64,000 nucleotides of DNA from Candidatus Eiseniibacteriota bacterium. GTDB taxonomy: Bacteria; Eisenbacteria; RBG-16-71-46; JABDJR01. The stretch's first letter is position 1. Every line of letters starts with the position of its first letter. The stretch lies in the NCBI GenBank assembly GCA_963762255.1, contig CAVXKA010000002.1, positions 912,628-976,627 of the forward strand, written 5' to 3'. The position numbers were made by a program, and so were the translations under genes. Positions 13,053 to 46,999 of the stretch are shown one piece after another. The notes beneath the pieces were generated by a model that was not told the DNA's origin, did no database searches, and was given only the letters and a program-made list of their open reading frames with translations.

Positions 13053-13067
13053 CCGCCTCTCCTTCCC

Positions 13068-13733: not shown

Positions 13734-13824
13734 GTCCTCCGTTGCTTCGGGTTATGCGGCCGGGGAGGCGCCTTCGTCGGGCTTCACGGCCCGCGCGTGC
13801 CCCGTCCGGTCTTCTGAAATCGTT

Positions 13825-22783: not shown

Positions 22784-22812
22784 CGCGCGCGCATCCATCT
22801 ACGCGTTTTTTT
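22778..22812 (+). terminator. Candidate intrinsic terminator after the DUF302 gene
   Basis: GC-rich hairpin (GCGTAG...CTACGC) followed by a T7 run. The loop is long (about 15 nt), so the structure is uncertain. Confidence 0.4.
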
Positions 22813-22832
22813 ACGAATCCATCACTTTTTTA

Positions 22833-22861
22833 TTGACGTATCTGTGGCGTCGCGATAGATT
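22833..22861 (+). promoter_or_regulatory. Candidate sigma70 promoter for the HNH endonuclease gene (TTGACG-N17-TAGATT)
   Basis: Located in an unusually AT-rich stretch about 55 nt upstream of the start at 22915. Confidence 0.35.
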
Positions 22862-22914
22862 CTCTGTGCCCGCCCACTTCCCCCGTCCTTCCACCCGTCC
22901 ACGGAGGGACCGCC

Positions 22915-24225
22915 ATGTCCGCTGAAACCACTGCACTTCACACTGACACCGCCGTGTTGCTTGAGGGGGCCGTGCTCACCCGGGTGAGCACCGGGGTCGT
23001 AGGTCGATCGCCGGCCTTGAGTCCGGCTAATTCCGCATCCGCGCGCCCACTTCCCGCCGCGGAGGTCGAAGCTCGTCTGGTCGCCGCGTTGGGGGACCTG
23101 GACGCCGCGCGGAAGAACGCGGTGATCTGGTTCGGAGAGATCCTCGCCCGCAAGCTCTACTTGGAGTTCGGGTGCTCGAGCATCCACCACTATGCGCGAG
23201 AGAGACTGGGGTTCTCTCGGGCGAGGACCGCGTACTTCCTGCGACTGTGTCGGTCCTTCGAAGCACTGCCGGCGTTGAAGGAGTCGATCGCTACCGGGAT
23301 GGTGCCGTGGACGAAGGCACGGGAGGTGGTGAAGGTGGCCACGCCGGAGACGGAGTCGTTCTGGGTCGAGCAGGCTCGGACCACCGGCCGGCGCGAGTTG
23401 GAGCAGCGGGTGGCGGCGACACAGGGGGCGGCGCGCTCCCGGCGGCGGGCACCAGGGCAAGGGGAACTGCTGGCGGCGAATGGCGTGGATGGCCCGGCGA
23501 ATGGGCGGGCGGCCGGAACCCATGATGCGGTGGACGGCGCAGCCGGCACGGTCGTGAGCCCGGTGACGGAAGTCCCGGTCACGGTATCGTTCCAACTTTC
23601 GCCGGAGCAGTACGCGCGGTATGAAGCGATCCTGGAGCAGGCGCGCAAGACCGGTGCGCGTGGATCTCGCGAAGAGTTGTTCCTCGCCGCGTGGGAAATG
23701 CTCACCCGGGGCAACTTCGGCAGTGCACCGCCCGCGCGGAGCGGGCGGAACCCGGACGTGATCACCCGGGGCAACATACCGGCGGCGAATGCGACTCCCG
23801 TGTCATCCGCGCCCCGCTACCAGATCGTCATTCGCCAGTGTGAGACCTGCGGCCGAGCTGAGATCGCGACGGGGCGGGGGGCGATGCCCATCGCGCCCAG
23901 GACGTTGGAGACCGCGCTCTGCGATGCGCGCGTGCATCGAAAGGGTCAACCCAACCGCGCGACCATCCCTCCGTCGGTGCGGCGCGAGGTGCTCGCACGT
24001 GACGGTCATCGCTGCCGGACGGCGGGATGCGGCGGTGTGCGGTTCCTGGACGTGCACCACATCGTGCCGCGCGAACACGGTGGCAGCAACGATCCTGACA
24101 ACCTCATCACCCTGTGTTGTGCCTGTCACCGGATGATCCACGAGCGCAGCAACGCGGTTGATGCGTGGCCGCTGCGGCGGGGTTCCGGGATCGATGCTCA
24201 CCCGGGTGGCACCTCCGCGGCGTAG
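22915..24225 (+). CDS. DUF222-HNH endonuclease domain protein
   Basis: 436 aa. C-terminal HNH motif ...RFLDVHHIVPREHGGSNDPDNLITLCCACHRMIHE. The N-terminal region resembles DUF222 (13E12-repeat-family-like) proteins. Confidence 0.7.
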   Translation: MSAETTALHTDTAVLLEGAVLTRVSTGVVGRSPALSPANSASARPLPAAEVEARLVAALGDLDAARKNAVIWFGEILARKLYLEFGCSSIHHYARERLGFSRARTAYFLRLCRSFEALPALKESIATGMVPWTKAREVVKVATPETESFWVEQARTTGRRELEQRVAATQGAARSRRRAPGQGELLAANGVDGPANGRAAGTHDAVDGAAGTVVSPVTEVPVTVSFQLSPEQYARYEAILEQARKTGARGSREELFLAAWEMLTRGNFGSAPPARSGRNPDVITRGNIPAANATPVSSAPRYQIVIRQCETCGRAEIATGRGAMPIAPRTLETALCDARVHRKGQPNRATIPPSVRREVLARDGHRCRTAGCGGVRFLDVHHIVPREHGGSNDPDNLITLCCACHRMIHERSNAVDAWPLRRGSGIDAHPGGTSAA

Positions 24226-24235
24226 CGTGGCGCCC

Positions 24236-24299
24236 GTCGACCGCAGTCCGACGGGCCGCGAAGCGGGGGACCCGTCGGCGAGGACGACGGGCGCACGCG
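24236..24299. repeat. Roughly 64-nt hairpin-containing repeat, copy 1 (inverted partner at 36405..36470), followed by palindrome GCGCTCACCCGGGTGAGCG at 24340-24358
   Basis: The reverse complement of 36405-36470 aligns at about 88% (e.g. GCAGTCCGA(C/A)GGGCCGCGAAGCGGGGG(A/C)CCC(G/T)TCGGCGAGGACGAC). It has an internal 8-bp stem CCGACGGG/CCCGTCGG. It lies in a convergent intergenic region. Confidence 0.6.
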
Positions 24300-24366
24300 A
24301 AGCCGCGGGCGTGGGCGAGCCGGGTGGGGGCCGCACCGGGCGCTCACCCGGGTGAGCGTGACGCCC

Positions 24367-25599
24367 CTACGTCCCCACCTTGAACATCTGCCGCGCCTTC
24401 TCCAGCGCGCGCACCAGCGCGTCCACTTCCTCGGGCGTGTTGTAGAGGTAGAACGACGCGCGCGTCGTCGCCGGCACGCCGAGCACGCGCATGAGCGGCT
24501 GCGCGCAGTGATGACCGGCCCGCACCGCCACCCCTTCGTTGTCGACGATGGTGGCCAGATCGTGCGGGTGGATGTCGCCCAGGCCGAATGAGATCGCCCC
24601 ACCCCGCTCGGTGCGCGGCCCGTAGATGCGCAACCCCGGAACCGCGCTCAACGCCTCCAGCGCGTACGCGGTGATCTCCTGCTCGTGACGCCGCACATTC
24701 TCCATCCCCAGCGCGGTCAGGTAGTCGACGGCCGCCGCCATCCCTACCGCACCGGCGATGTTGGGCGTGCCCGCTTCGAACTTGTGCGGCGCCTTCTTGT
24801 AGGTGGAGCGCTCGAGCCGCACCTCCAGAATCATCTCTCCTCCGCCGTGGAACGGGGTCATCGCGTCCAGCAGATCCGCCTTGGCGTAGAGCGCACCAAC
24901 GCCCGTCGGCGCGAGCATCTTGTGCCCGCTGAACGCGAAGAAGTCGACGTCCAGCGCCGCCACGTTCACCGGCATGTGCGGCGCCGACTGCGCGCCGTCC
25001 ACGAGCACCTTCGCGCCGACCGCGTGCGCGGCCTCCACAAGCCGCCGCACCGGGTTGATCGTCCCGAGCGCATTCGACATCTGGTTGAAGGCGACAAGCT
25101 TCGTCCGCCGGGTGAGCAACTCGTCCAGCTTGCTCAGGTCGAGCGTGTAGTCCTGAGTCAACGGGATGAACCGCAGGACGGCCCCGGTGTCTTGCGCGAC
25201 CATCTGCCACGGCACCAGGTTCGAGTGGTGCTCCATCACGGTGAGAAGGATCTCGTCGCCCGGCTTGAGCGTGCGCCGCGCCCACGCGTACGCGACGAGG
25301 TTGATGCTCTCGGTGGTGCCGCGCGTCCAGATCAGTTGATCCGGCGACGGCGCCCCGATGAACGCCGCCACGGTCGCACGCGCGTCCTCGAAAGCCTGGG
25401 TCGCACGCTCCGCCAGCGCGTACACCCCGCGGTGCACGTTGGCGTTGTCGTGCTCGTAGTAGGCGCGCACGCGGTCGAGCACCTGCCGAGGCTTCTGCGA
25501 GGTGGCCGCGTTGTCGAGGTAAACCAGGGGCTTGCCGTGCACGCTCTGGTGCAGGGCCGGGAAATCGGCGCGGATCGTGTTCACGTCGTACATGGGCAT
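24367..25599 (-). CDS. sufS: Cysteine desulfurase (SufS/Csd class-II aminotransferase)
   Basis: 410 aa from MPMYDVNTIRADFPALHQ...LDNAATSQKP...FSGHKMLAPTGVGALY...RAGHHCAQPL.... The upstream 310 aa of the track ORF are Gly/Glu/His-rich junk. Confidence 0.8.
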   Translation of the reverse strand: MPMYDVNTIRADFPALHQSVHGKPLVYLDNAATSQKPRQVLDRVRAYYEHDNANVHRGVYALAERATQAFEDARATVAAFIGAPSPDQLIWTRGTTESINLVAYAWARRTLKPGDEILLTVMEHHSNLVPWQMVAQDTGAVLRFIPLTQDYTLDLSKLDELLTRRTKLVAFNQMSNALGTINPVRRLVEAAHAVGAKVLVDGAQSAPHMPVNVAALDVDFFAFSGHKMLAPTGVGALYAKADLLDAMTPFHGGGEMILEVRLERSTYKKAPHKFEAGTPNIAGAVGMAAAVDYLTALGMENVRRHEQEITAYALEALSAVPGLRIYGPRTERGGAISFGLGDIHPHDLATIVDNEGVAVRAGHHCAQPLMRVLGVPATTRASFYLYNTPEEVDALVRALEKARQMFKVGT

Positions 25600-25647
25600 C
25601 GAGTATAGCGCTCGCCCGAAAGGCTCCCAACTCGCTATTCTCCCCCC

Positions 25648-26877
25648 ATGCCTCTCCACATCCGGCCGCACCCGCACGAGGATCGCCCGGACTTCACGCC
25701 GAGCGAACGCTCGGTGGTGGGCGGCCTCACCGCGCTCCTCACCCTGCGCATGCTGGGGTTCTACCTGGTGCTGCCGATCCTTGCTCCCTACGTGCGCGGG
25801 CTCGCGGGAAGCACCCCGCTCCTGGTTGGGATGTCGGTGGGCGTGTACGGCCTCGCCCAGGCCCTCCTCCAGGTTCCGTTCGGAGCATGGGGCGATCGAT
25901 GGGGCCGACGCCCCGTGCTCACGGTAGGGCTCCTTTCGTTCGCGCTGGGCTCGGTCGTGTGCGCGATCGCGCACGACGCGCGGCTCATGGTGCTCGGCCG
26001 TCTTGTGCAGGGGGTGGGCGCGATCTCCTCCACCCTGGTCGCCATGCTGGCCGATCATACGCGCGACCGGGTGCGCACACGCGCGATGGCCATGATCGGA
26101 GTGGCGGTGGGCGGCTCGTTCGCGGCCGGGCTTCTCTTCGGTCCCGCTGCCGCCGCGCGCTTCGGCATCCCCGCCCTCTTCTGGCTCACCGCCGTTCTCA
26201 GCGTCCTTGCCGTGGTGTGGTTGTGGTGGAAGATCCCCGACCCGCCGCTCTCGATCCATCACGAAGAGATCGAGTACTCGCGAGGCCATTTCCTCGAGGT
26301 CCTCCTCGACCGAAACCTCCTTCGCCTGGACCTCGGGGCGTTCAACCTCCACGTCGTGCTCACCGCGATCTTCGTCACCGTGCCGTTCCTGTTGCGGCAT
26401 CTCCTCGCCGAGCAGTATCAGTGGCGGTTCTTTCTCCCCGTCCTCGCCGTGGGCCTCGCCGCCCTGATTCTCGCCCCGCCCCTGAGCGAGAAGCGGGGGC
26501 GACCGAAGAAAGTCGCCGTCGCCGGGCAACTGGTGCTCGCGGCATCCCTAGTCGTGCTTGCGTTGGGGGTTCCGGCCAGCGTGCGGGAGCCGCGGGTCGG
26601 GCTCACCACGCTCATCGCGGGGCTCCTCCTCTTCGTGATCGCGTTCGCCGTCTTGGAGCCGCTCTTCCCCGCTCTCATCACGCGGTTCTGCCCATCCTCG
26701 ACGCGCGGCACCGCCCTCGGCGTATTCAACATGAGCATGTTCAGCGGGGCGTTCGTGGGGGGAATCGTCTCGGGACTCCTGATCGAGTCGAACGTCGAGG
26801 CGCTCTTCTGGATCCTCACCGGCACGACGTTGTCGTGGATCGCGCTCGGGTCGACGCTCAACGATCCGGAGAGGTAG
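25648..26877 (+). CDS. MFS transporter
   Basis: 409 aa, about 12 TM segments. MFS motif region ...FGAWGDRWGRRPVL.... Confidence 0.7.
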   Translation: MPLHIRPHPHEDRPDFTPSERSVVGGLTALLTLRMLGFYLVLPILAPYVRGLAGSTPLLVGMSVGVYGLAQALLQVPFGAWGDRWGRRPVLTVGLLSFALGSVVCAIAHDARLMVLGRLVQGVGAISSTLVAMLADHTRDRVRTRAMAMIGVAVGGSFAAGLLFGPAAAARFGIPALFWLTAVLSVLAVVWLWWKIPDPPLSIHHEEIEYSRGHFLEVLLDRNLLRLDLGAFNLHVVLTAIFVTVPFLLRHLLAEQYQWRFFLPVLAVGLAALILAPPLSEKRGRPKKVAVAGQLVLAASLVVLALGVPASVREPRVGLTTLIAGLLLFVIAFAVLEPLFPALITRFCPSSTRGTALGVFNMSMFSGAFVGGIVSGLLIESNVEALFWILTGTTLSWIALGSTLNDPER

Positions 26878-27772
26878 CACCCCGGGCGACCGCGTCGGGC
26901 TCCGCGTAGGCGCCGGCGCGCCGAAGCGCCTCGGTGGCGCGCGCGCCGGGAAAGCTCACGAGGATCGCCAGCGCCGCTCCGGCCAGCGCGTCGATCGCGT
27001 AGTGATATCCCCCGTAGACCGCTCCTACCGCCAGCGCGGGGACGATGAGCGCGAAGACTCGCGCGAGCCGCACGTGATAGCGCATCGCCATGATCCATGC
27101 CGTCACCGCCACCGCCACGTGGCTGGAGGGAAAGGCGGCGCCCACCGCGGAGCCTCGATCCAACACGGATCGCACGAGCCCCGGCAACAGGTAGCCCACC
27201 GTGGCGGGATCGCTGCGTGGAAAGGCGTGGTAGGGGCCCACGACCGGATAAAGCACGAAGATCGCGAAGCAGGAGTAAGTAGAGAGCGCGACCGTTCCGA
27301 TCGCGATTTCGAACTCGCGGCGCGGGCGTCGCAGCCACAAAACCGCGGCCAGCGTTGGCGTGAGGAAGTAGTACGCGAAGTAGCCCAGGTGCAGGTACTC
27401 GCCGAGCAGCCGCCATGGCCAGAGCAGGTGAAGCTCGCGCGCGGGCTGAAACCCGAAGACGATCTGCTCCAGGTCCTGGATCGCCGCATCGTGGAAGACC
27501 CCGGCGTGCACCGCCTTCACGAGCAGGCCCACTTCGGAATAGAAGAGCGCGAACGCCACGATCGGATAGAAGCCGAGAACGACCGCGCCCACTTTCCATC
27601 GGTGGACACGATACGCGCGCGCGAGCACGATGGCGGCGATCGCGGCGACGTGAAGCACGATGAGCAACGCGGCGTTCGGCGGCCGGTGCGGCGCGAGAAG
27701 GAGCATCACGAGCCCGAAGACGAGGTAGGCCAGGGTGTACAGATCCGCCGGCCGCAGACGCCTCACAAGCAT
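26858..27772 (-). CDS. PAP2-superfamily membrane phosphatase-like protein
   Basis: 304 aa from MLVRRLRP.... Multi-TM. PAP2 motifs (PSSHV; YGGYHYAIDALAG). The start overlaps the upstream gene stop by about 10 nt. Confidence 0.6.
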   Translation of the reverse strand: MLVRRLRPADLYTLAYLVFGLVMLLLAPHRPPNAALLIVLHVAAIAAIVLARAYRVHRWKVGAVVLGFYPIVAFALFYSEVGLLVKAVHAGVFHDAAIQDLEQIVFGFQPARELHLLWPWRLLGEYLHLGYFAYYFLTPTLAAVLWLRRPRREFEIAIGTVALSTYSCFAIFVLYPVVGPYHAFPRSDPATVGYLLPGLVRSVLDRGSAVGAAFPSSHVAVAVTAWIMAMRYHVRLARVFALIVPALAVGAVYGGYHYAIDALAGAALAILVSFPGARATEALRRAGAYAEPDAVARGATSPDR

Positions 27773-28740
27773 CCCTCCCGACGGTACCAATCGACGGTCT
27801 CCGCAAAGCCCGTCACCGCATCGATGCGCGCACGAAAACCGAAGTCGGTCTCGGCGCGCGCCCCACTGCAGACCCAGCCCGGAGCGAGCAGATCCGCAAG
27901 CCGATCCGGAGGAAGCCCATTGGGACGCCCGCTCATCGCCGCTGCGATGCCGGCGATCCGGCCCACCGCGGGGATCCCCCGCCGCGGGATCCGCAGACGC
28001 CTCACGCGACGGCCGAGCCGAGCCGCGATCAGCCGACCGAGCGATTCCCAATCGGTGATCTCCGGGTGTGCGACGTAGTACGTGCGGCCGATCGTGCGGT
28101 CGGACTCCGATGCCGCGACGATCGCCTCGGCCAAGTCGCGCGCATGGATGAGGCTCACGTGCTGCGCGACACGTCCTATCGCGGGCACCCATCCCCGCGC
28201 CGCGAGCCGCGCGAGCAGCAGAAACGAAACGTCGCGCGGGCCGTAGACCGCGGGCGGACGGAGGATCGTCCAGGCCGTACTTCCCGCCTCCGACTTGAGC
28301 AGGGTCTCTCCACGGAGCTTGCTACGGCCGTAGGAATTGCATGGCGTGTCGGGATCATCCTCGGTGCGTGCTCGCCCGGCGACGCTGGGACCGCCGGCGG
28401 CGAGGCTGCTCACCAACACCAAACGGCGCGCGCCTTCCGCGGCTGCGGCGCGAGCCACATGTGCGCACCCGCCGGCATTGACGCGGTCGTATTCCTCTGG
28501 ATCGGTGGCACGAGTGATCCCCGCGACGTGGTAGATCACCTCGATCCCGCGCGCGGCCTCGGCGAGCGCTTGCGGCTCGGTAACCTCGCCGTAGACCAAC
28601 TCCACGCGATCCACCGGGAGCCACGCCAGCTTGCTGGTGCGCCGCACCAGACACCTAACGCGATGCCCGCGAGCAAGCAGCGCGTCGGCAAGATGACTCC
28701 CCACGAACCCGCTCGCTCCGGTGACCAGCGCCAGGGTCAA
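27763..28740 (-). CDS. NAD(P)-dependent epimerase/dehydratase-family protein (candidate ceramide/3-ketosphinganine reductase-like)
   Basis: 325 aa from a TTG start (LTLALVTGASGFVGSHLADALLARGHRV...). Rossmann GxxGxxG and a YxxxK-type SDR-extended layout. The TTG overlaps the upstream stop (TTGA). Confidence 0.65.
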   Translation of the reverse strand: MTLALVTGASGFVGSHLADALLARGHRVRCLVRRTSKLAWLPVDRVELVYGEVTEPQALAEAARGIEVIYHVAGITRATDPEEYDRVNAGGCAHVARAAAAEGARRLVLVSSLAAGGPSVAGRARTEDDPDTPCNSYGRSKLRGETLLKSEAGSTAWTILRPPAVYGPRDVSFLLLARLAARGWVPAIGRVAQHVSLIHARDLAEAIVAASESDRTIGRTYYVAHPEITDWESLGRLIAARLGRRVRRLRIPRRGIPAVGRIAGIAAAMSGRPNGLPPDRLADLLAPGWVCSGARAETDFGFRARIDAVTGFAETVDWYRREGCL

Positions 28741-29870
28741 GGGGCCGTCGCTCCCTCGGAGCGGCCCTCGTAGATACGGTAGGTCTTGTAGGGCCTCCCC
28801 CCGAAGTTCTCGAGCGGCTTGCGTATGGCGAGGTTGTCCTCGAGCAGCCAGGAGAACTCGCCCCAGGTGTAGCCCTTCTTCACGCCGTGGCGGAAGTAGT
28901 CGCGGTACATGATCACGTCGATGCCGGTGTGCCGATACTCCTGGAGAAGTCCCAGCACCAGCACCCGCGCGCGGTTGATATGGCGCGCGTGCCAGAGGAT
29001 CTTGAGCAGCCCGAACGGAAAGAGGTGCCCGTTGGCGTGCTTGACCGCCTGGTTGAGATCGGGGAGCCCGAGCGCGAAGCCCACCGCCTTCCCCTCGAGT
29101 TCGGCGATGAGGATGAGCCCGGGGTCGATGACCGGCTTCAACTGCTTGGCCATGTGATCGATCTCGGCGTCGGTCATGGGCACGAAACCCCAGTTCTTCT
29201 CCCACGCCGAGTTGTACACGATCCGGAACTTCTCCACGTCCTCCTGGAACCGCTTCTTGTCCAGGCGACGAACGACAACCCCCGGATTGCGCTCCTGGGC
29301 GATCGCACCTCCCCGCTCCAGCCTCTCCGGGACTCCCACGTTCGGCATGCAATAGGCGAAGAGATCCTTGGCCTTCACGAGCCCGCAGGCTTCCACCAGC
29401 CGCCCGTAGTACGGCAGCGCGTGCGTCATCATGACCGCGGGGGGCGTGTCGAAGCCCTCCACCAGGAGCCCGCACTCCTCGTTCGTGCTCGGGTTCATGG
29501 GACCGATGAACCGCGGCAGCCCCTGTTCGCGGTGGTAGGCGCGCACCGCATCGAAGAGCGCCCGCGCGGCCTCGGTGTCGTCCTCGCACTCGAAGAACCC
29601 GAAGAATCCCATCGCCTCGTCGTGGAACGACTCGTGGTTGCGGTTGCGGATCGCCGCAATGCGCCCGACGACTCGCCCGTCGCGCAGCGCCAGCATCGGA
29701 CGGATGTCGCCGTGCTCGAAGAAGGGGTTCTTGGCCGGGTTGAAGAGCGCCTTCACGTCGCCGATCAGAGGCGGGATCCAGTGCGGATCGTCGCGATAGA
29801 GGCGCCAGGGAAGCGTCACGAAGACGTGCAGTTCGCGGCCCGAGCGGACCGGTTCCACCGTGATCGACAT
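28737..29870 (-). CDS. GNAT-like N-acyltransferase of unknown specificity (candidate bacterial ceramide synthase-like)
   Basis: 377 aa, MSITVEPVRSGRELHVFVTLPWRLYRDDPHWIPPL.... Reads as an acyl-CoA N-acyltransferase fold with FemAB/GNAT-like duplication. No closer assignment is possible by eye. Confidence 0.5.
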   Translation of the reverse strand: MSITVEPVRSGRELHVFVTLPWRLYRDDPHWIPPLIGDVKALFNPAKNPFFEHGDIRPMLALRDGRVVGRIAAIRNRNHESFHDEAMGFFGFFECEDDTEAARALFDAVRAYHREQGLPRFIGPMNPSTNEECGLLVEGFDTPPAVMMTHALPYYGRLVEACGLVKAKDLFAYCMPNVGVPERLERGGAIAQERNPGVVVRRLDKKRFQEDVEKFRIVYNSAWEKNWGFVPMTDAEIDHMAKQLKPVIDPGLILIAELEGKAVGFALGLPDLNQAVKHANGHLFPFGLLKILWHARHINRARVLVLGLLQEYRHTGIDVIMYRDYFRHGVKKGYTWGEFSWLLEDNLAIRKPLENFGGRPYKTYRIYEGRSEGATAP

Positions 29871-29899
29871 GGGCTAAGCCCCCCGAAGTTCCTACGCGG

Positions 29900-31147
29900 T
29901 CAAGAGATGATGCCGAGCTCGCGCCCGACCTTGCGGAAGACCTCGAGCATCCGGTCGATGTTCTCTTCGGTGTGGGTGGCCATGTACGAGGTCCGGATCC
30001 GGCACGAAGTCTCGGGTACCGCCGGCGGCACCACCGGGTTCGTGAAGACGCCCTCCTCGAACAGGCGCTTCCAGAACACGAACGTGTGCTCGAGGGTACC
30101 GATGATGACCGGGACGATGGGTGTCTCCGACGTCGTGGTGTCGTAGCCCATGCGCTGGAATTCCCGGCGCATGCGGTCCGAGATCTCGTTCACGCGCTGC
30201 CGCCGCCAGGGCTCTTCCTTGATCAGGTCGAGGCACTTCTGCACCGTCGCCACCGCATAGGGAGGCATGCTGGCGCTGAAGATGAGGGCGCGCGCGTGAT
30301 GACGCATGTAGTGGATGACCGATTCCTCGGCGGCCACGTAGCCGCCGATGGACGCGAAGGACTTGGAGAACGTACCGGCGATCAAGTCCACATCGCCCAC
30401 GACCCCCTTCACTTCGCTGGCGCCGATCCCCTTCTTCCCCAGAATCCCCACGGAATGTGCCTCGTCCACCATGAGCCGCGCGCCGTGGGCGCGGCATGCC
30501 TTGACGATCTCCGGAAGCGGCGCGATGTCCCCCTCCATCGAGAACACGCCGTCCACGACCACCAGCCGCCCGCGCTTGGAATCGATGCGCCCCAGGATCC
30601 GCTCGAGGTCGCCGATTTCGTTGTGCCGGAAGCGGCGGGTCTCGCCGTAGGAGAGCCGGCAGCCGTCCACGATGCTGGCGTGGTCGAACTTGTCCATGAT
30701 GACCACGTCGTCGCGGCCCACCATGCTGGAGATCGTGCCGAGGTTCGTCTGGAAACCGGTGGAGAAGATGAGGCAGGATTCCTTCTCGCAGAACTCCGCG
30801 AGGTCGTGCTCCAGCTTCTCGTGAATGTCGAGGGTGCCGTTCAGGAACCGGCTCCCGGTGCAGCCGGTGCCGTACTTGCGCGCCGCGGCCTCGGCCGCTT
30901 CCATCACCCGCGGGTCGTGCGTGTAGCCCAGGTAGTTGTTGGAGCCCGCCATGATCAGCGACCGGCCGTCGATGATGACTTCGTTCGCCGACGAATCGGC
31001 GATCGGGATGAAGTAGGGATAGTAGCCCGACGCCTGCGCCTCGCGGGCGCGCGTGAAGGTGTAGGCCTTCTTGAAGATGTCGGCGATTTCCTGAGCCTCG
31101 TGGGCCGGAGTCGCCATCGGATTCGGATCCATCCTGCCTCCGCACAT
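29900..31147 (-). CDS. PLP-dependent alpha-oxoamine synthase (serine palmitoyltransferase / 8-amino-7-oxononanoate synthase family)
   Basis: 415 aa. ...NNYLGYTHDPRV...CTGSRFLNGT...IFSTGFQTNLG...VVDGVFSMEGD...DEAHSVGILGKKG...GTFSKSFASIGGY..., PLP-Lys in the TFSKS motif. AONS/Spt family. Confidence 0.8.
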   Translation of the reverse strand: MCGGRMDPNPMATPAHEAQEIADIFKKAYTFTRAREAQASGYYPYFIPIADSSANEVIIDGRSLIMAGSNNYLGYTHDPRVMEAAEAAARKYGTGCTGSRFLNGTLDIHEKLEHDLAEFCEKESCLIFSTGFQTNLGTISSMVGRDDVVIMDKFDHASIVDGCRLSYGETRRFRHNEIGDLERILGRIDSKRGRLVVVDGVFSMEGDIAPLPEIVKACRAHGARLMVDEAHSVGILGKKGIGASEVKGVVGDVDLIAGTFSKSFASIGGYVAAEESVIHYMRHHARALIFSASMPPYAVATVQKCLDLIKEEPWRRQRVNEISDRMRREFQRMGYDTTTSETPIVPVIIGTLEHTFVFWKRLFEEGVFTNPVVPPAVPETSCRIRTSYMATHTEENIDRMLEVFRKVGRELGIIS

Positions 31148-31380
31148 GGTGATTCACACGGTGTCTCCCACGAGCTGGGGGCGGTCGGGAGACGGGCCGG
31201 GAACGCAATAGCCTAACCGGAAGGCGTAGTCATTCCAAGGGCTTTCCCGTTTCGCGCGCGCGGTCGGGGGCGCGGTGCCTCGGTGCGTGCCGCGGATAAC
31301 GGATGCGGCGCCTCGGCACGCGCCATGAAGAAAGCGGTACGGTTGGCCGTGTCCCGTGGATCGGGTAGAATCGCCCGCTT

Positions 31381-33489
31381 ATGACCCCCACAAGCAATCG
31401 CACTCCGTCGTCATCGCTCGATCGGGACCAGCTCGTCGCGATCTACCGCAACATGGTCCTCTCGCGTCGCATGGACGACGCGGAGATCAAGCTCAAGCGT
31501 CGCAACCAGTACTTCTTCCAGATCAGCGGCGCGGGGCACGAAGCGGTCCTGACCGTGGCGGGGATGCTCCTCCACTCCGGCCACGACTGGTTCTTCCCCT
31601 ACTATCGCGACCGCGCGCTGTGCTTGCAGCTCGGAGTGACCCCGCGCGAGATGCTGTTGCAGGGGGTGGCCGCCGAGGACGACCCGGCGAGCGCCGGGCG
31701 CCAGATGCCGAGCCACTGGGGTCACGCGAAGCACAATATCGTCTCTCAATCGAGCCCGACCGGCACCCAGTGTCTGCATGCGGTGGGTTGCGCCGAGGCG
31801 GGGATGCATTTCGAGCGCCATCCGGATCTGCCCGGCAAGCCGCGCTTCGAAAGCGACGAGGTCGCCTACACCTCGGTCGGCGACGGCACCACGAGCGAGG
31901 GCGAGTTCTGGGAGGCGCTCTCCGCCGCCACCGTGAACAAGCTTCCGGTGCTGTTCATGGTCGAAGACAACGGCTACGCGATCAGCGTGCCGACCAGCGT
32001 GCAGACCCCGGGTGGGAAGATCAGCAAGGCGGTGGAGGGGTTCACCGGGCTCCTCGTGGAGGAGTTCGACGGCACCGACGCGGTCGCTTCCTATGAGGCC
32101 CTCGCGCGGCTCGTCCAGTATTGCCGCGAGCGCAAGGGACCGGCGCTGGCGCACGCACATGTGGTGCGCCCCTATAGCCACTCCATGTCGGACGATCATC
32201 GCGCGTACCGCACCGAGGCCGAGTTGGCCGACGAGGCAAAGCGCGATCCGGTCGACAAGCTGCGGAAGCGGCTGCTGGAGGAAGGTGTCTTGACGGACGC
32301 CAGGCTGGACGCTCTCCACGCCGAGGTGGACGAAGAGATCGAGGCGGCGGTGGCGGCGGCGCTGGAATCGTCCATGCCTCCGCTCGAGAGCGCGGGACTC
32401 TACGTCTACTCCCCCGACGTCGATCCCACCTCGGGGGCGTTCGCCACGGAACCGGCGCCAGGAGGCGCCGACGCGTCCGTGGTGGAACTCATCAACGCCT
32501 GCCTCGTCGACGAGATGGAGCGCGATCCTCGCATCGTGGTCTTCGGCGAGGACGTGGCCGACGCCACCAAGGAGGAAGCGCTCCGCGAGACCAAGGGGAA
32601 GGGCGGGGTGTTCAAGGTCACGAGCGGACTGCAGCGCCGCTTCGGCAGCGATCGCGTGTCGAACTCACCCCTGGCCGAGGCCAACATCGTGGGACGGGCG
32701 GTCGGCATGGCCTTGCGGGGACTCAAGCCTGTCGTGGAGATCCAGTTCTTCGACTACATCTGGCCCGCGTACCACCAGATCCGCAACGAGCTCGCGATGA
32801 TGCGCTGGCGGAGCGGCAATCACTGGAAGTGCCCGCTCGTCATCCGGGTGCCGATCGGCGGCTACCTCGGCGGCGGCGCGGTCTATCACAGCCAGTGCGG
32901 CGAGGTGCTCTTCACCCACAACCCGGGATTGCGCGTGGTCATGCCCTCCAACGCGCTCGACGCGAACGGGCTCCTGCGCACCGCGATCCGCTGTGACGAT
33001 CCGGTGATCTTCCTCGAGCACAAGCACCTCTACCGCCAGCCGTACGCCAAGGGACCGCGCCCGGGCCCGGACTACATGATCCCCTTCGGCAAGGCGCGCA
33101 TCGCGCGCGAGGGGAAGGACGCCACGCTCGTGACCTACGGCGCCACCGTGCGCCGCGCGGAAATGGCGGCCAAGGATCTCGAGAAGGACGGGGCCTCGAT
33201 CGAGGTCATCGACCTCCGCTCGCTCTCGCCGTGGGATCAGGATGCGGTGGCGCAGAGCGTGCGCAAGACCGGTCGCGCGCTGGTGGTCTACGAGGATAAC
33301 CGCTCGTGGGGTTACGGCGCCGAGATCGCGGCGTGGATCGCCGACGAGCTCTTCGAGCACCTCGACGCGCCGGTGCGCCGTTTCGCGGGGATGGACAACC
33401 CGGTCGCCTACGCACCCAACCTCGAAGACGTCATCCTGCCGCAGACGGAGACGATCGCGCGCGCGATGCGGGAGCTGCTCGCGTACTGA
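31381..33489 (+). CDS. 2-oxo-acid dehydrogenase E1 component, fused alpha-beta (TPP-dependent; pyruvate/branched-chain type)
   Basis: 702 aa. N-terminal E1-alpha ([34 protein letters not shown]...) and C-terminal E1-beta (transketolase-like, ...VFGEDVAD...GGVFKVT...). No E2/E3 genes are adjacent. Confidence 0.75.
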
Positions 33490-33552
33490 CGTGCCGGCGG
33501 CTGACGCGTTGCCGGCTGATGCATCCTCCCGGCGACGGCGGAGTGAGCCGTT

Positions 33553-34579
33553 CTAGTCGATGAGGAGGAGCCGGAACAGGTAGTAGCTCCCGGCCCCGAT
33601 CAGAGCGGCCGCGGGGATGGTCAAGAGCCAGGCCCAGATGATGCGGCCCGCGACGCCCCACTTGACCGCGGACGCGTTGGTGGTCGCGCCGACTCCCACG
33701 ATTGCTCCCGTAATGGTATGCGTCGTCGACACGGGAATACCGGCATGGGTCGCCATCCACAGGGTGAACGCCCCCGAGGTCTCGGCGGCGAATCCACCCA
33801 CCGGCTTCAGCTTCGTGATCTTCATCCCCATCGTCTTGACGATGCGCCAGCCGCCGAAGGCCGTGCCGATGGCCATCGCGAGGTGGCAGGAGAGGATGAT
33901 CCAGAGCGTGTGCGGGTCGGTGAGTGAGAGTTGGACGTCGGGGCTCATGTAGACCCGCCGCGACAAGCAGCGCCACGATCACGCCCATCGTCTTCTGGGC
34001 GTCGTTGCCCCCGTGGCCCAGCGAGTAGAGCGCCGCCGACAAGAGCTGCCCGCGCCGGAAGACGCGGTCGACGGTGGCCGGACGCCACTTCCGAAAGATC
34101 CAGAAGACGGCATGCATCACGATGAAGCCGAGAACCATGCCGATCACCGGCGCGAGCGGGATGTACTCGACCACCTTCATGACCTTGTCCCAGCGGAGAA
34201 TGTCCCAACCCGCGTAAGCGATGCCGGCCCCGCCGATGCCTCCGATGAGCGCGTGCGAGGAGCTGGTGGGAAGCGCCCACCACCAGGTCAGCAGATCCCA
34301 CACGATCGCGCCGATCAGCCCGGCCAGGACCACGTAGACGAACGTTGGTTCATCCGGAGTGATCTTCACGATCTTCGAAATCGTGTCGGCCACTTTGGGG
34401 GCAAAGATGAACATGGCCACGAAGTTGAAGAAAGCAGCCCACAGCACCGCCATGCCGGGGCGCAGGACTCGCGTCGAGACCACCGTGGCGATGGAGTTGG
34501 CCGAGTCATGGAAGCCATTGATGACGTCGAACAGGAGCGCGAGGATGATCGTGAAGACGACGACGACGGTGATCGACAT
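33553..34579 (-). pseudogene. pit: Inorganic phosphate transporter PiT family, interrupted by a -1 frameshift at about 33945-33952 (pseudogene or assembly error)
   Basis: The N-terminal half (MSITVVVVFTIILALLFDVINGFHDSANSIATVVSTRVL...GNDAQKTMGVIVALLVAAGL) is in the ORF 33431..34777 frame. The C-terminal half (...WIILSCHLAMAIGTAFGGWRIVKTMG...GIPVSTTHTITGAIVGVG...) is in the ORF 33553..33966 frame. The junction lies next to a GGGG run. Confidence 0.7.
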
Positions 34580-34581
34580 GG

Positions 34582-35208
34582 TCAATCGTGCTCGAGGACC
34601 ACGCCTTCGATGATGTTGGCCACGTCCTCGCAGCGGTCGGTGGCCTTCTCCAGGATCTCGTAGATCTCCTTCCACTTGATCACCATGATCGGATCCTTCT
34701 CGGTCAGGAACAGATTGGCGATGGCCTCCCGGAGAACGGCGTCGGCGTCGTTCTCCAGCCGGTTCACCTCGATGCACTTCTGGCGGATGACGTCGGCGTG
34801 GCGAAGGTCGCGCAGCCCGTTCACCGCGTGCTGAACCTCGACTGCGGATTGGGCGAGGATGCCGGCCAGGGACTTGATCTCCGGCGTCATCTCGGTGAGC
34901 CGATACAGGTGCAGCCGTCCGGCCACACCGTCCACCGAGTCCATCACGTCGTCCATCTTGCTGATGAGGCGATGGATGTCGTTGCGATCGAGCGGGGTGA
35001 TGAACGTCTTGTGCAGGGCTTCCATGCAGCGGTGCGTGATGACGTCCGCCTCGTGCTCGATCTCCTTGATGCGCCTCGCCCGGAGGCTCACGTTACCCCC
35101 GGAGGTGACGAGCTCGACAAGTTCCGTCGTCCCGGACACGGTGAGCGCGATGTGCTGATCGAAAAATCCGAAGAAGCTCACCTCGCGGGGCAAGAGACGC
35201 GGGAACAT
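34582..35208 (-). CDS. DUF47/PhoU-like phosphate transport regulator (Pit accessory protein)
   Basis: 208 aa from MFPRLLPREVSFFGFFDQHIALTVSGTTELVEL.... It is 2 nt upstream of pit. This is the typical TIGR00153-type pairing with PiT. Confidence 0.65.
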   Translation of the reverse strand: MFPRLLPREVSFFGFFDQHIALTVSGTTELVELVTSGGNVSLRARRIKEIEHEADVITHRCMEALHKTFITPLDRNDIHRLISKMDDVMDSVDGVAGRLHLYRLTEMTPEIKSLAGILAQSAVEVQHAVNGLRDLRHADVIRQKCIEVNRLENDADAVLREAIANLFLTEKDPIMVIKWKEIYEILEKATDRCEDVANIIEGVVLEHD

Positions 35209-35411
35209 GCGGATCCTCCCTTCGTGGAGGGGCACTCCGTGGAGAGCCGCCTCGACACCCATCCGGCCTCACTCGCGGACGGGCAGTCTACAACAAGTGC
35301 CACCGTCCTGCCCTCCCCCTGCAAGAGCGAGCGTGCTGGCGCGAGCCCAGACTCTATCTTCTTATATCTACAAGGGTTGCGGGTGCGATTGGGGGCACGC
35401 GTTCGCGACTG

Positions 35412-36017
35412 TCAGGGCCGCGTCTCGACGGGTTCCGCGTCCGAGGCGATGTCGGGTGAGATGAGCATGCGTTCCAGGCGACGCGCCCACCGATGCGCCT
35501 CCCACGCTCCGCCGTCGACTTCGCTTGCGACGACGACCAGGCCGTGGCAGAGCGCGGCGATGATGCGATTACGCCACCAGCGGCGGTCGAGCGATTCGGC
35601 CGACTCGTTGGGGAAAGGGCTTAGCAGGAGTCCGCCGCTCTCGACGATCCTGCGGGCCAGCTTCCCCTGTGTGGAAGCCAGAAGGGCGTTGATGCCGGAT
35701 CCCGGCACCACGATGGCCTTGAGCCCGGCCTTCATCGCCGCTTCGTGGGCGGCGGCGTCCACGCCCGGCGAGATCCCGCTCACGATCACCATCGCGAACT
35801 CGGAGGCCACCTCGACGATACGCGCGGTATCGCGCTCGATCTCCGGGGTCGGTGTGCGCGTCCCGACCACCGCCAGCGCGGGGCCCTCGCCGAGGAGCTT
35901 GAGATCTCCCAGGCTGCGCATCACGCGCGGACGGCCGGGCAGCTCCAGCACGCGCTGCGGATACTCAGGCAGGTTGGGCCTGAGTTCGCGAATCTCGAGC
36001 TTGTCGGTCTTGGTCAT
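35412..36017 (-). CDS. DprA/Smf-family Rossmann-fold protein (short form)
   Basis: 201 aa. ...ALAVVGTRTPTPEIERDTARIVEVASEFAMVIVSGISPGVDAAAHEAAMKAGLKAIVVPGSGIN...RRWWRNRIIAALCHGLVVVASEVDGG... matches the DprA Rossmann domain consensus. It has no C-terminal DML1 or winged-helix extension. Confidence 0.55.
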   Translation of the reverse strand: MTKTDKLEIRELRPNLPEYPQRVLELPGRPRVMRSLGDLKLLGEGPALAVVGTRTPTPEIERDTARIVEVASEFAMVIVSGISPGVDAAAHEAAMKAGLKAIVVPGSGINALLASTQGKLARRIVESGGLLLSPFPNESAESLDRRWWRNRIIAALCHGLVVVASEVDGGAWEAHRWARRLERMLISPDIASDAEPVETRP

Positions 36018-36150
36018 CGCTTCCCCGCTTCGCGGTACGCGCCCCGCAGGCGCCCGCGTTCGCCGTGATGATCGCAGCTTCGGGGCGCGATGGCTAGGGG
36101 AGGCAGATCATGCGCCGATCCGCGCGCGACGGCTCTGCTATCCTCTCCGC

Positions 36151-36372
36151 ATGGCAATGACATGCAACATCGATGCCCGCGGTCGCCTTCTGCGAGCGCT
36201 TATCGGACTCGTATTCATCGTGGCGGCACTCGTCCTCGTGTTCGCACTGCCGCCCACCGGCTGGCGTCGCGCGCTGGTCGTGGTTCTCACGCTGGGCGGC
36301 ATCTTCTGCCTGTTCGAAGCGCGGGCCGGCTGGTGCGCGGTGCGGGCGATGGGGATCAAGACGCGGATCTAG
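36151..36372 (+). CDS. DUF2892 (YgaP-like) small inner-membrane protein
   Basis: 73 aa. MAMTCNIDARGRLLRALIGLVFIVAALVLVFALPPTGWRRALVVVLTLGGIFCLFEARAGWCAVRAMGIKTRI has two TM helices and the conserved GWC motif. Confidence 0.6.
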   Translation: MAMTCNIDARGRLLRALIGLVFIVAALVLVFALPPTGWRRALVVVLTLGGIFCLFEARAGWCAVRAMGIKTRI

Positions 36373-36404
36373 CGGACGGGCGGGCGCGGCTCTCCGCGTG
36401 TCGC

Positions 36405-36470
36405 GGGTCGTCCTCGCCGAAGGGGCCCCCGCTTCGCGGCCCTTCGGACTGCGGCCGACCCGCGAACCCG
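36405..36470. repeat. Roughly 64-nt hairpin-containing repeat, copy 2 (inverted relative to 24236..24299), followed by palindrome TCACCCGGGTGA at 36527-36538
   Basis: See copy 1. It is in the convergent intergenic region between the DUF2892 gene and dapD. Internal stem CCGAAGGGGCC/GGCCCTTCGG. Confidence 0.6.
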
Positions 36471-36600
36471 CTACGCGCCGCGCCCACACCGCACGATCAC
36501 TCCATATCACGATTCGTGCGGAGTGCTCACCCGGGTGATCATCCTGCGTCGCATGAGTCCAGCCGGATGGACTGGTGGGTACGCGGGCGCGGCGCGGCCG

Positions 36601-46955: not shown

Positions 46956-46999
46956 AATTGTAAGTCCTCCCCTCGACTGGCGCCTGAAGGAGGTTGCCG

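What the first reader, a model, noticed from the sequence alone, without database searches (positions are those of the whole stretch)
24236..36538. Pair of ~64-nt inverted, hairpin-containing repeats (about 88% identical) flanking a 12-kb block, each beside a TCACCCGGGTGA palindrome. HNH endonuclease and DprA-like genes lie at the two edges.
Copy 1 (24236-24299) and copy 2 (36405-36470) are reverse-complementary and each folds into its own stem-loop. Both lie in convergent intergenic regions, and both have the 12-nt perfect palindrome TCACCCGGGTGA within about 100 nt. The same CTCACCCGGG core also occurs three times inside the HNH gene (about 23700, 23765, 24196). The enclosed block (sufS, MFS, the lipid cluster, E1, pit/phoU-like, dprA-like, DUF2892) has no transposase. 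The repeats are therefore more likely REP/BIME-type bidirectional terminator elements than IS termini. Their spread, and their association with a DUF222-HNH gene, deserve a genome-wide look.
Basis: seen in the sequence. Interest (0 to 1): 0.5.

Follow-up and report, generated by a model that had tools for sequence, protein, structure and literature searches.

The report
Hairpin tail of a multicopy HNH gene
The two inverted hairpin repeats are real, but they do not bound the 12-kb block: one is the conserved 3' stem-loop of a multicopy, apparently selfish HNH-nuclease gene, and the other is a gene-less copy of that same 3' end.

Summary
Arms 24231-24293 and 36402-36464 are 63 nt and 87% complementary. 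Each folds stably, and every difference in a stem is compensated.

The REP/BIME reading is only partly right. The 12-kb block is ordinary conserved synteny; a relative with 79% E1 identity keeps it without the HNH gene, the hairpins or the palindrome.

The hairpin belongs to the HNH gene. In relatives, HNH paralogs (76-84% aa identity) sit at four separate loci. At each, the same hairpin starts a few bases after where the HNH reading frame normally ends, and one copy matches the window 63/63. Together with the last ~30 nt of the gene it forms a 125-140-nt stem-loop.

Copy 2 matches an HNH 3' end from the palindrome through the hairpin, so it is a solo remnant or abortive copy. The true partner of the 36527 palindrome is the near-palindrome at 24198, not 24344.

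The palindrome (ATGCTCACCCGGGTGAGCAT) recurs at fixed places inside every paralog. The protein's N-terminal domain has a ParB/KorB-type DNA-binding fold, so I infer that it binds the palindrome.

Hairpin function is also inferred: mRNA 3' end or insulator, and/or a recombination site. The closest known kind is the DUF222-HNH / REP13E12 repeats. Genome-wide copy number could not be measured.

The parts
22784..22914 (+). Upstream region of the HNH element: T-rich tract, promoter-like site (TTGACG-17-TAGATT, 22833-22861) and a conserved C-rich 5'UTR with a GGAGGGA Shine-Dalgarno (about 22873-22911).
   Evidence: It holds the only sigma-70-like site in 22600-24500 (shuffles give 0.1). The last 39 nt before the ATG are 97% identical to paralogous elements L024 and L013. 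The same layout is seen in L027 and L031, and a related 5'UTR in L029.
22915..24225 (+). HNH endonuclease gene (436 aa): N-terminal ParB/KorB-type helix-turn-helix domain, zinc-ribbon-like CxxC region, C-terminal HNH. It is one member of a multicopy family and is an insertion relative to more distant relatives.
   Evidence: - Pfam HNH at residues 376-411.
- AF2 model has pLDDT above 90 for residues about 70-170.
- P0121, P0131, P0138 and P0141 all carry a 1,436,571-bp longest contig, presumably the same one.
- The gene is absent between DUF302 and sufS in L021/L022.
- GC3 is 0.79 against 0.85-0.91 for neighbouring genes.
22972..22991 (.). Palindrome P, copy 1 (GTGCTCACCCGGGTGAGCAC), in the disordered N-terminal tail of the HNH ORF.
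   Evidence: P lies 40 to 61 nt downstream of the ATG in L013, L024 and L027 and in L031. It is an island of identity in a poorly conserved stretch. Residues 21-25 have pLDDT below 50.
23702..23773 (.). Two degenerate P half-sites (TCACCCGGGGCA at 23702 and at 23762), in the interdomain linker. They correspond to the intact mid-gene P of the paralogs.
   Evidence: Intact P lies 706, 748 and 715 nt downstream of the ATG in L013, L024 and L027. The linker has low pLDDT.
24198..24209 (.). P' (TCACCCGGGTGG), 27 nt before the end of the HNH ORF. It forms the 5' base of the long terminal hairpin and is the homologous partner of the 36527 palindrome.
   Evidence: Searches show the same offset of -27 in L013, L024 and L027. 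Searches show its pairing in the long hairpin. Searches show homology with locus 2.
24200..24325 (+). Long 3'-terminal stem-loop of the HNH element.
   Evidence: - Core dG is -56.3, z -4.2. The 126-nt hairpin has dG -93.9, z -5.3.
- It is 63/63 identical to L024 11266-11328 and 61/61 to L013 2872-2932.
- The covariance model scores 98 bits.
- 25 pairs are 100% paired, 5 of them with double changes.
24341..24358 (.). Palindrome P (CGCTCACCCGGGTGAGCG), between the element's right end and the sufS stop. It lies outside the conserved unit and is absent at this position in L013.
36385..36545 (-).
   Evidence: - Covariance model scores 96 bits on the minus strand.
- dG is -51.1, z -4.2.
- It aligns with the 3' end of the L031 HNH element from GATG(A/C)TCACCCGGGTGAGCA through the hairpin and with the other 3' ends.
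- In L013 the orthologous spacer carries variant B instead.
36557..36572 (.). P2-like palindrome (GTCCAGCCGGATGGAC), 19 nt from P. It is one mismatch from the 18-nt palindrome found mid-gene in the more distant HNH paralog of L029.
   Evidence: It is missing from the orthologous spacer of L013.
24367..36372 (.). The enclosed 12-kb block: SufS-like, MFS, PAP2, epimerase, aminotransferase, E1, PHO4, PhoU_div, DprA, YgaP-like. These are ordinary chromosomal genes, not cargo of a mobile unit.
   Evidence: Pfam. Same order in L013. Most of it is kept in L021/L022, which lack the HNH gene and, by the model and palindrome searches, the hairpins and P. GC shows no discontinuity.

Best explanation
The hairpin is the conserved 3'-terminal module of a roughly 1.5-kb multicopy HNH-nuclease gene unit. 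That unit comprises its own promoter, a conserved 5'UTR, an ORF and a 125-140-nt terminal stem-loop that overlaps the stop codon.

Copy 1 in the window is the tail of an intact unit. Copy 2 is what remains of another unit in the opposite orientation, either a deletion remnant or an abortive partial copy. It keeps only the stretch from the last palindrome to the hairpin. The 12 kb in between is normal chromosome.

Shown:
- The physical linkage of hairpin and HNH gene at four separate loci.
- Conservation and covariation of the stem-loop.
- The insertion status of the gene.
- Homology of copy 2 to HNH 3' ends.

Inferred:
1. The stem-loop is transcribed as the end of the HNH mRNA. It works as a U-tract-less 3'-end or insulator structure between convergent genes.
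2. Its near-identity between paralogs reflects gene conversion and/or a cis-acting role when the unit is copied.
3. The 16-20-bp palindrome P is the binding site of the protein's ParB/KorB-type HTH domain. P recurs at fixed places in and around every paralog. It may mark where the nuclease acts during homing-like spread into intergenic spacers.
For: Linkage:
- Hairpin A starts a few bases after where the HNH reading frame normally ends, with the same junction, at window 24231, L013 2872, L024 11266 and L027 11044. In L031 (11281-11371) the called ORF reads through it.
- These are four different genomic contexts.
- The proteins are only 76-84% identical, yet the hairpin is 63/63 identical between the window and L024. 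The last ~160 nt of the unit are 94-100% identical, against 70-85% for the interior.

Structure:
- 25 pairs are 100% paired, and 5 pairs changed on both sides. No shuffle in 500 reached the observed covariation score, and slid controls collapse.
- Diverged variant B keeps all 10 outer pairs with a different sequence.
- The long hairpin scores z -4.3 to -5.3 at three loci.

Insertion and multicopy status:
- The HNH gene is absent between DUF302 and sufS in L021/L022.
- At least 4 family members share one contig length and so presumably sit on one contig of the source genome.
- GC3 is lower than in host genes.

Solo copy:
- Locus 2 aligns with the L031 and L013 3' ends from P through the hairpin.
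- The A2 subtype is itself HNH-linked in L031.

Palindrome and protein:
- P sits at conserved offsets in each paralog, in low-pLDDT segments.
- The 55%-identical paralog carries a different 18-nt palindrome at the same mid-gene place.
- Pfam HTH_ParB matches 2 of 86 family members and DUF222 matches 7.
- ParB/Noc DNA-binding domains bind palindromes as symmetric pairs (PMC7383237).
Against: - No transcription data exist, so the RNA role is untested.
- No U-tract follows the hairpin, so it is not a canonical intrinsic terminator.
- Compensatory changes in a DNA palindrome can arise by template switching without selection on RNA. Covariation therefore does not separate RNA from DNA function.
- Loop positions are not more conserved than stems (4 of 15 unpaired positions vary, against 10 of 50 paired), so nothing points to sequence-specific loop recognition.
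- Only 7 full copies were seen, several closely related.
- Sampling of relatives was centred on HNH genes, which biases linkage upward.
- The source genome could not be fetched.
- No empty site close enough to define exact ends or target duplications was available.
- Binding of P by the protein rests on fold analogy and site distribution only.
- The L001 solo copy has no P nearby.
Confidence: 0.7

Rival explanations
1. The hairpins, with P, are pre-existing intergenic elements that serve as the insertion target of the HNH gene. On this reading the gene lands just 5' of a hairpin, and solo hairpins are unoccupied targets, not remnants.
For: - Solo hairpins exist: window locus 2, and L001.
- Fragments of A2-type arms lie beside full hairpins at occupied sites, at L013 2823-2845, L024 11382-11418 and L031 about 11245-11262.
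- Solitary P sites sit in other spacers, at L024 7424 and L027 18147.
- Some IS families are known to target REP hairpins (own knowledge).
Against: - The long stem pairs the last ~30 nt of the ORF, including P', with sequence 3' of hairpin A. The structure therefore spans the supposed junction.
- Identity runs without a break from inside the ORF through the hairpin.
- Hairpins at two different loci are 63/63 identical, while the window's solo copy differs from copy 1 by 13%.
- Locus 2 also keeps P' and the spacer that belong to the ORF's 3' end.
Confidence: 0.12
2. REP/BIME-type dispersed palindromic elements, mobilised in trans by a RAYT-like enzyme and acting as bidirectional terminators. 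The HNH association would be incidental.
For: - The location is intergenic and convergent.
- A GCG(T/G)AG head precedes the hairpin in all copies, recalling the GTAG head of REPs (own knowledge).
- The spacers are mosaics of modules A, B and P that differ between close relatives.
Against: - Density is very low away from HNH genes: one locus in about 235 kb.
- A single hit in 185,579 species genomes, and none among plasmids.
- No RAYT or transposase among the ORFs scanned or in annotated related loci.
- The unit is 63-140 nt.
- In the HNH-linked copies GCGTAG contains the gene's stop codon.
Confidence: 0.08
3. The stem-loop encodes a structured RNA partner of the nuclease (guide or scaffold). 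It would be analogous to the right-end RNA of TnpB or the omega RNA of IscB, which overlap the ends of their ORFs.
For: - The conserved structured region overlaps the ORF's 3' end.
- By sequence, the HNH domain's best solved relative is an IscB HNH (E 2e-12; NCBIfam guided_IscB 52 bits).
- Solo copies keep the fold.
Against: - The match covers only the HNH domain. The score of 52 is far below the cut-off of 175, and there is no RuvC.
- There is no Rfam hit, HEARO included.
- The structure is a plain long hairpin with no variable guide-like segment next to it.
- A protein HTH domain plus palindromes already accounts for target recognition.
Confidence: 0.05
4. Terminal inverted repeats of a 12-kb composite transposon or genomic island.
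For: The orientation is inverted and the spacing is about 12.1 kb. A DprA-like gene and an HNH gene lie near the edges.
Against: - There is no transposase or integrase.
- The block is syntenic in L013 and largely so in L021/L022, which lack the repeats.
- GC shows no break.
- In L013 the second site carries variant B in direct orientation relative to the B copy at locus 1.
- The HNH gene lies outside the block.
Confidence: 0.02

Closest known systems
DUF222-HNH repeat genes (mycobacterial REP13E12 / '13E12 repeat family')
   Same: - Multicopy units of about 1.3-1.5 kb.
- They encode a protein with a long helical N-terminal domain and a C-terminal HNH.
- Copies are scattered in one genome.
- A 43%-identical homolog (P0239) and 7 of 86 family representatives pass Pfam DUF222 over the same N-terminal region.
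- REP13E12 loci are gene-conversion hot spots with no defined function (PMC13061034; PMC10589994). That would fit the homogenised ends seen here.
   Different: - The window protein itself has no DUF222 hit.
- The host is a different, uncultured lineage.
- In the papers I read, I found no mention of a conserved 3' stem-loop, internal palindromes or a ParB-type fold for REP13E12.
REP / BIME elements with RAYT transposases
   Same: - GC-rich imperfect palindromes in spacers between convergent genes.
- A G(T/G)AG motif 5' of the stem.
- Mosaic arrangements that differ between strains.
   Different: - Copy number is low.
- The unit is 63-140 nt, not 20-40 nt.
- It is physically attached to a multicopy HNH gene.
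- No RAYT was found.
Free-standing HNH homing endonuclease genes (for example phage T4 mobE)
   Same: - A small selfish nuclease gene with its own promoter, sitting between host genes.
- It is present or absent at a given spacer among relatives (PMC2790892 listed).
   Different: - The host is chromosomal, not a phage.
- There are many paralogous sites instead of one cognate site.
- Intact candidate recognition palindromes lie inside the element.
- Homing was not shown.
ParB / Noc / KorB DNA-binding domains and their palindromic sites (parS, NBS, OB)
   Same: - The candidate sites are 16-20-bp palindromes clustered in and near the protein's own gene. P shares TCAC..GTGA with parS and the central CCCGGG with NBS (sequences from PMC7383237).
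   Different: - No ParB N-terminal CTPase domain was detected.
- The domain is fused to a nuclease.
- Binding was not tested.
IS200/IS605-type OMEGA systems (IscB, TnpB) and HEARO RNA
   Same: The HNH domain is most similar by sequence to IscB's. A conserved structured region overlaps the end of the ORF.
   Different: - No RuvC domain.
- The score is far below the family cut-off.
- No Rfam match.
- No TnpA.
Intrinsic (factor-independent) terminators, including U-tract-less hairpins of high-GC bacteria
   Same: A stable GC-rich stem-loop lies directly after a stop codon, between convergent genes.
   Different: - No U-tract follows it.
- It is far longer than usual.
- Its sequence is conserved between paralogous loci, which a plain terminator does not need.

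Membership tests
REP/BIME (RAYT-associated) | Short (about 20-40 nt) imperfect palindrome with a conserved 5' GTAG-type head | tested here: inconclusive
   A GCG(T/G)AG head is present in all copies. However, the core is 63 nt and the full stem 125-140 nt. In the HNH-linked copies the TAG is the stop codon.
REP/BIME (RAYT-associated) | Many dispersed copies per genome in intergenic regions | tested here: not met
   The covariance model over 234,735 nt found 6 full copies and 2 B variants, and the L031 scan added a seventh full copy. All lie at HNH genes or at the one YgaP/DapD spacer, apart from L001. There was 1 hit in GTDB species genomes. The source genome itself could not be scanned.
REP/BIME (RAYT-associated) | Cognate RAYT (Y1 transposase) gene flanked by the repeats | tested here: not met
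   There is no Y1_Tnp or other transposase among 40 window ORFs, nor in the precomputed Pfam of related loci. The rest of the genome was not testable.
IS element / composite transposon bounding the 12-kb block | Transposase gene, and a bounded unit absent from relatives | tested here: not met
   No transposase was found. The block is syntenic in L013 and largely so in L021/L022 without the repeats, and shows no GC break.
DUF222-HNH (REP13E12-like) repeat genes | Pfam DUF222 N-terminal domain | tested here: not met
   The window protein has no hit even at E <= 10. Homolog P0239 scores 26.1 bits against a cut-off of 24.4, and 7 of 86 family representatives match. This is a remote relationship, not membership by the curated threshold.
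DUF222-HNH (REP13E12-like) repeat genes | C-terminal HNH domain, and several paralogous copies per genome | tested here: met
   HNH scores 45.5 bits. Four family members share one contig length. Five loci were seen in related assemblies.
IscB / OMEGA RNA-guided nucleases | RuvC domain split by HNH, NCBIfam guided_IscB above its cut-off, and an associated omega/HEARO RNA | tested here: not met
   NCBIfam gives 52.3 bits against a cut-off of 175, over the HNH stretch only. The PDB match also covers only the HNH domain. There is no Rfam hit.
Canonical intrinsic terminator | GC-rich hairpin followed by a U-tract | tested here: not met
   The hairpin is present, but there are 0 terminator-like sites at either locus and no T run after the stem.
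ParB/Noc/KorB family | HTH DNA-binding domain fold | tested here: met
   [not shown]
ParB/Noc/KorB family | N-terminal ParB/Srx CTPase domain, and specific binding to a palindromic site | not testable with these tools
   There is no ParBc Pfam hit. Binding of P is inferred from site distribution and needs biochemistry.
Free-standing homing endonuclease gene | Present/absent polymorphism at a spacer, and cleavage of the empty allele by the encoded nuclease | tested here: inconclusive
   The gene is absent from the DUF302-sufS spacer of a 79%-identity relative. No close empty allele was available, and cleavage cannot be tested here.

The most novel reading that the evidence does not exclude
These ParB-HTH/HNH genes may form a distinct, undescribed type of bacterial selfish element. 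In this reading the nuclease recognises its own subfamily-specific palindrome (P or P2) through the ParB-like domain. It nicks or cuts spacers that carry such sites. It is then copied in by recombination that uses the palindromes and the 130-nt terminal hairpin as cis-acting homology or structure. Solo 'P + hairpin' modules would be abortive copies. If so, the same logic could explain the function-less DUF222-HNH / REP13E12 repeats of actinobacteria.
Probability: 0.15. Interest if true: 0.7.

Novelty: new variant of a known kind. Interest (0 to 1): 0.42.

Why it matters
Multicopy HNH genes with a long N-terminal domain (DUF222 / REP13E12-like) are common. This family alone has 1,341 50%-identity clusters at E <= 1e-30. 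A 2026 preprint still describes the mycobacterial examples as lacking a defined biological function (PMC13061034).

This locus gives a concrete anatomy to test:
- a ParB-type DNA-binding domain;
- a cognate-looking palindrome embedded at fixed places in disordered parts of the ORF and in its flanks;
- a conserved, covarying 3' stem-loop that survives as solo copies.

For annotation, such inverted hairpin pairs should not be read as boundaries of a mobile block. Small 'REP-like' repeats in an uncultured high-GC lineage can instead be debris of selfish nuclease genes.

Tried and rejected
1. Rfam. Gathering thresholds on the whole window, and E <= 10 on 24100-24450, gave nothing except a spurious miRNA hit.

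2. Collection scans.
- The genome-contig scan with a 24-base core gave one hit, L001.
- The metagenome-contig scan with a loop-anchored gapped pattern gave 11 hits, all chance matches with no hairpin. L005/L008 looked hairpin-like, but L005 scored nothing with the covariance model (L008 has the same matched sequence and was not searched).
- That collection evidently lacks the JGI samples that do carry the element, so the negative result is weak.
- Blastn of the plasmid collection with the hairpin found no match. tblastn with the protein matched only the HNH domain.

3. Source genome. Exact-protein look-ups for the window's own genome and its closest NCBI relative failed, so no genome-wide copy count was possible.

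4. GCGTAGCG as a REP-like head motif. It has 8 sites in the window, several of them ordinary Ala-stop gene ends, so it is not diagnostic.

5. 5'UTR. The MFE fold is no better than shuffles (z 0.27). An anti-SD pairing remains only a visual impression.

6. A 10-nt terminal-inverted-repeat relation between the 5'UTR (CTTGCCCGCCCAC) and the right flank (GTGGGCAAG). It was seen by eye in L027 only and is inconsistent elsewhere, so I dropped it.

7. Module B of L013 was first treated as an unrelated repeat. The covariance model showed it is a diverged hairpin of the same family.

8. The afdb50 fold library was unavailable.

Full report
**1. Observation**

The inverted repeat is real and stands far apart from background.
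- The repeat finder gives arms 24231-24293 and 36402-36464, 63 nt and 87% complementary. The next-longest inverted pair in the 64-kb window is 47 nt at 70%.
- Core patterns of 29 and 31 nt occur only at these two sites, with 0.00 expected in shuffles.
- Each copy folds alone into a stable stem-loop: -56.3 and -51.1 kcal/mol on the sense strands, z = -4.2 for both.
- TCACCCGGGTGA occurs exactly at 22976, 24344 and 36527, and with one mismatch at 24198. That is 4 sites against 0.21 expected.
- Degenerate half-sites lie at 23702 and 23762.
- The HNH protein has no Pfam DUF222 hit, even at E <= 10.

**2. The 12-kb block is not a mobile unit**

The E1 protein has a 93%-identical homolog on JGI contigs. 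That locus (L013) has the same gene order, from MutY through HNH and the whole block to DapD and beyond.

A relative at 79% E1 identity (L021/L022) keeps most of the block. There DUF302 is followed directly by sufS, with no HNH gene. The model search found no hairpin there and the palindrome search found no P.

GC content shows no discontinuity. No transposase or RAYT was found among 40 window ORFs.

**3. What the hairpin belongs to**

That genome could not be retrieved.

In the JGI relatives I fetched HNH paralogs at other loci:
- L024, between a beta-helix gene and a sigma-54 regulator.
- L027, between Omp85 and a HEAT-repeat gene.
- L031, between DAP epimerase and an NTP-transferase.
- L029, a 55%-identical paralog.

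In every paralog of the 76-84% group the same hairpin lies at the 3' end of the HNH gene. In L013, L024 and L027 it begins a few bases after the stop codon:
- L024 11266-11328 matches the window 63/63.
- L013 2872-2932 matches 61/61.
- L027 11044-11100 is 96% identical, with compensated stem changes.
- L031 11281-11371 scores 99 bits with the covariance model. Here the called ORF reads through the hairpin.

A sliding comparison of the window and L024 units shows 70-85% identity in the coding interior. Identity is 94-100% over the last ~160 nt (24162-24318) and 88% in the 5'UTR. The proteins are only 77% identical.

**4. Structure**

On six distinct copies, 25 proposed pairs are paired in 100% of cells. 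Five pairs changed on both sides, and the covariation score is 0.189 against 0.068 in shuffles. No shuffle in 500 reached it, and slid controls collapse to 25-56% paired.

A ~70-nt repeat in L013 that I first called module B is hit by the covariance model at 29-32 bits. It keeps all ten outer pairs with a different sequence, so it is a diverged member of the same hairpin family.

Folding a longer stretch shows that the last ~30 nt of the ORF pair with sequence about 100 nt downstream. This stretch includes the near-palindrome P' at 24198. The result is a 125-140-nt stem-loop:
- window: -93.9 kcal/mol, z -5.3;
- L024: -88.6, z -4.3;
- L027: -87.7, z -4.8.

No U-tract follows the stem, and no Rfam family matches.

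Two caveats apply:
- Compensated changes in a DNA palindrome can arise by template switching, so they do not prove an RNA role.
- Unpaired positions (4 of 15 variable) are no more conserved than paired ones (10 of 50).

**5. Copy 2**

Read on the minus strand, window 36545-36385 aligns with HNH 3' ends. The alignment runs from GATG(A/C)TCACCCGGGTGAGCA, through a diverged spacer and the GCGTAG head, to the hairpin. It is closest to the L031 element, whose hairpin is the same A2 subtype.

The palindrome at 36527 corresponds to P' at 24198, which lies 5' of the hairpin in both copies, and not to 24344.

Locus 2 is thus a gene-less 3' end of an HNH unit. In L013 the orthologous spacer holds variant B in the other orientation, so this spacer turns over quickly.

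Pieces of A2-type arms lie beside full hairpins in L013, L024 and L031. A further solo copy sits between convergent OmpA-like and TerB-like genes in a MAG contig, L001.

**6. The palindrome and the protein**

Sites within one mismatch of P lie at fixed offsets in each paralog of the close group:
- 40 to 61 nt downstream of the ATG;
- about 706 to 748 nt downstream of the ATG;
- 27 nt before the end of the ORF;
- often 130 nt upstream of the ATG.

All three internal sites fall in low-confidence segments of the AF2 model: the N-terminal tail, the interdomain linker and the C-terminal tail. The first is an island of identity in a poorly conserved stretch. This points to a nucleic-acid-level signal tolerated within disordered peptide.

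Solitary exact P sites elsewhere are all intergenic.

The 55%-identical paralog of L029 has no P. It carries a different perfect 18-nt palindrome, AGTCCAGCCGGCTGGACT, at the same mid-gene position, plus a P2/P hybrid nearby. A one-mismatch copy of P2 lies 19 nt from P in window locus 2.

The protein model has a confident helical N-terminal domain.
- The C-terminal part matches HNH nucleases: GVE2 8.3, McrA 7.9, IscB 7.4 (Foldseek).
- Pfam HTH_ParB matches 2 of 86 family representatives and DUF222 matches 7 (P0239).
- ParB/Noc domains bind palindromes as symmetric pairs. The crystallised sites were GATGTTTCACGTGAAACATC and GGATATTTCCCGGGAAATATCC (PMC7383237).

I therefore infer, but have not shown, that P is this protein's binding site.

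**7. Interpretation**

*Shown.* The hairpin is the 3' module of a multicopy HNH gene unit that is an insertion relative to more distant relatives. The second copy is a solo 3' end. The block between them is ordinary chromosome.

*Inferred.* The stem-loop forms the 3' end of the HNH mRNA and insulates it from the convergent neighbour. Its near-identity between paralogs reflects gene conversion and/or a cis role in copying. Gene conversion is frequent in the analogous REP13E12 repeats (PMC13061034). P marks where the protein binds.

*Rivals.* The hairpin as a pre-existing insertion target, a true REP/RAYT family, an omega-RNA-like partner, and composite-transposon ends are weighed in their own section of this report.

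**8. Comparison and novelty**

The closest known kind is the DUF222-HNH / REP13E12 type of repeat gene, to which this family is remotely related. The window protein fails the curated DUF222 threshold.

The full-length architecture is common, with 1,341 50%-identity clusters at E <= 1e-30. In the papers I read, I did not find the ParB-type fold, the embedded palindromes or the conserved covarying 3' stem-loop described for these genes.

I rate it a new variant of a known kind, of moderate interest.

**9. Limits**

- The source genome could not be scanned.
- Related DNA was sampled around HNH genes, which biases linkage upward.
- Only seven full hairpins were seen.
- All functional statements are inferences.
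- The lineage is uncultured. The only names attached to homologs are Candidatus Eisenbacteria (E1, 74%) and Krumholzibacteriia (HNH, about 43%).

Noticed in passing
window 22873-22911; L013 1563-1601; L024 9959-9997; L027 about 9911-9998; L029 about 9960-10000: The HNH 5'UTR (CCCACTTCCCCCGTCCTTCC(ACC)CGTCCACGGAGGGACC) is conserved even in the 55%-identical paralog. CCTTCC could pair with the GGAGGG Shine-Dalgarno, which suggests translational control. The MFE fold was no better than shuffles.
   Followed up: partly
L013 1379-1462(-), 2932-2998(+), 14991-15079(+): Variant hairpin B has three copies in 22 kb. Two of them flank the HNH gene in inverted orientation, and one replaces hairpin A2 at the YgaP/DapD spacer. 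B is absent from the window.
   Followed up: yes
L013 2823-2845; L031 about 11245-11262; L024 11382-11418: Isolated 5' arms or 3' halves of A2-type hairpins lie next to full hairpins. In L013 and L031 they are followed by GGTGGTGGAATGG. They look like products of slippage or recombination at the palindrome.
   Followed up: partly
L031 10001-11440: In this paralog the called HNH ORF (479 aa) reads through the hairpin, so the usual stop has been lost or shifted. Here the downstream gene is co-directional, not convergent.
   Followed up: no
window 22776-22815: The DUF302 stop is embedded in GCGTAG(N15)CTACGC followed by T7. This looks like a terminator with a large loop, missed by the scan because the loop exceeds 8 nt. 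The window lacks the P site that other paralogs carry about 130 nt upstream of the HNH start.
   Followed up: no
window about 10979-13751: A bacterial microcompartment cluster: two BMC-domain shell genes, EutN/CcmL and an aldehyde dehydrogenase.
   Followed up: no
window 46988-49027 and about 49300-51340: Two tandem paralogous genes, seen as direct repeats D1, D2 and D4 (70-81% identical, about 2.32 kb apart). The first has no Pfam match.
   Followed up: no
window 33431-34777: The PHO4-type phosphate transporter ORF has unusually low GC3 (0.66, against 0.85-0.91 for its neighbours). The stretch 34000-35500 has the lowest GC of the block (0.63). PHO4, PhoU_div and the YgaP-like gene are missing from the 79%-identity relative, so this sub-block may be a separate acquisition.
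   Followed up: no
L024 7424-7435; L027 18147-18158: Solitary exact P palindromes lie in spacers with no HNH gene or hairpin nearby. One is in a divergent promoter region. They could be binding sites, landing sites or remnants.
   Followed up: partly
L029 10678-10693: A hybrid palindrome (GTCCAGCCGGGTGAGC) joins a P2 left half to a P right half, 45 nt upstream of the perfect P2 site inside the L029 HNH gene.
   Followed up: no
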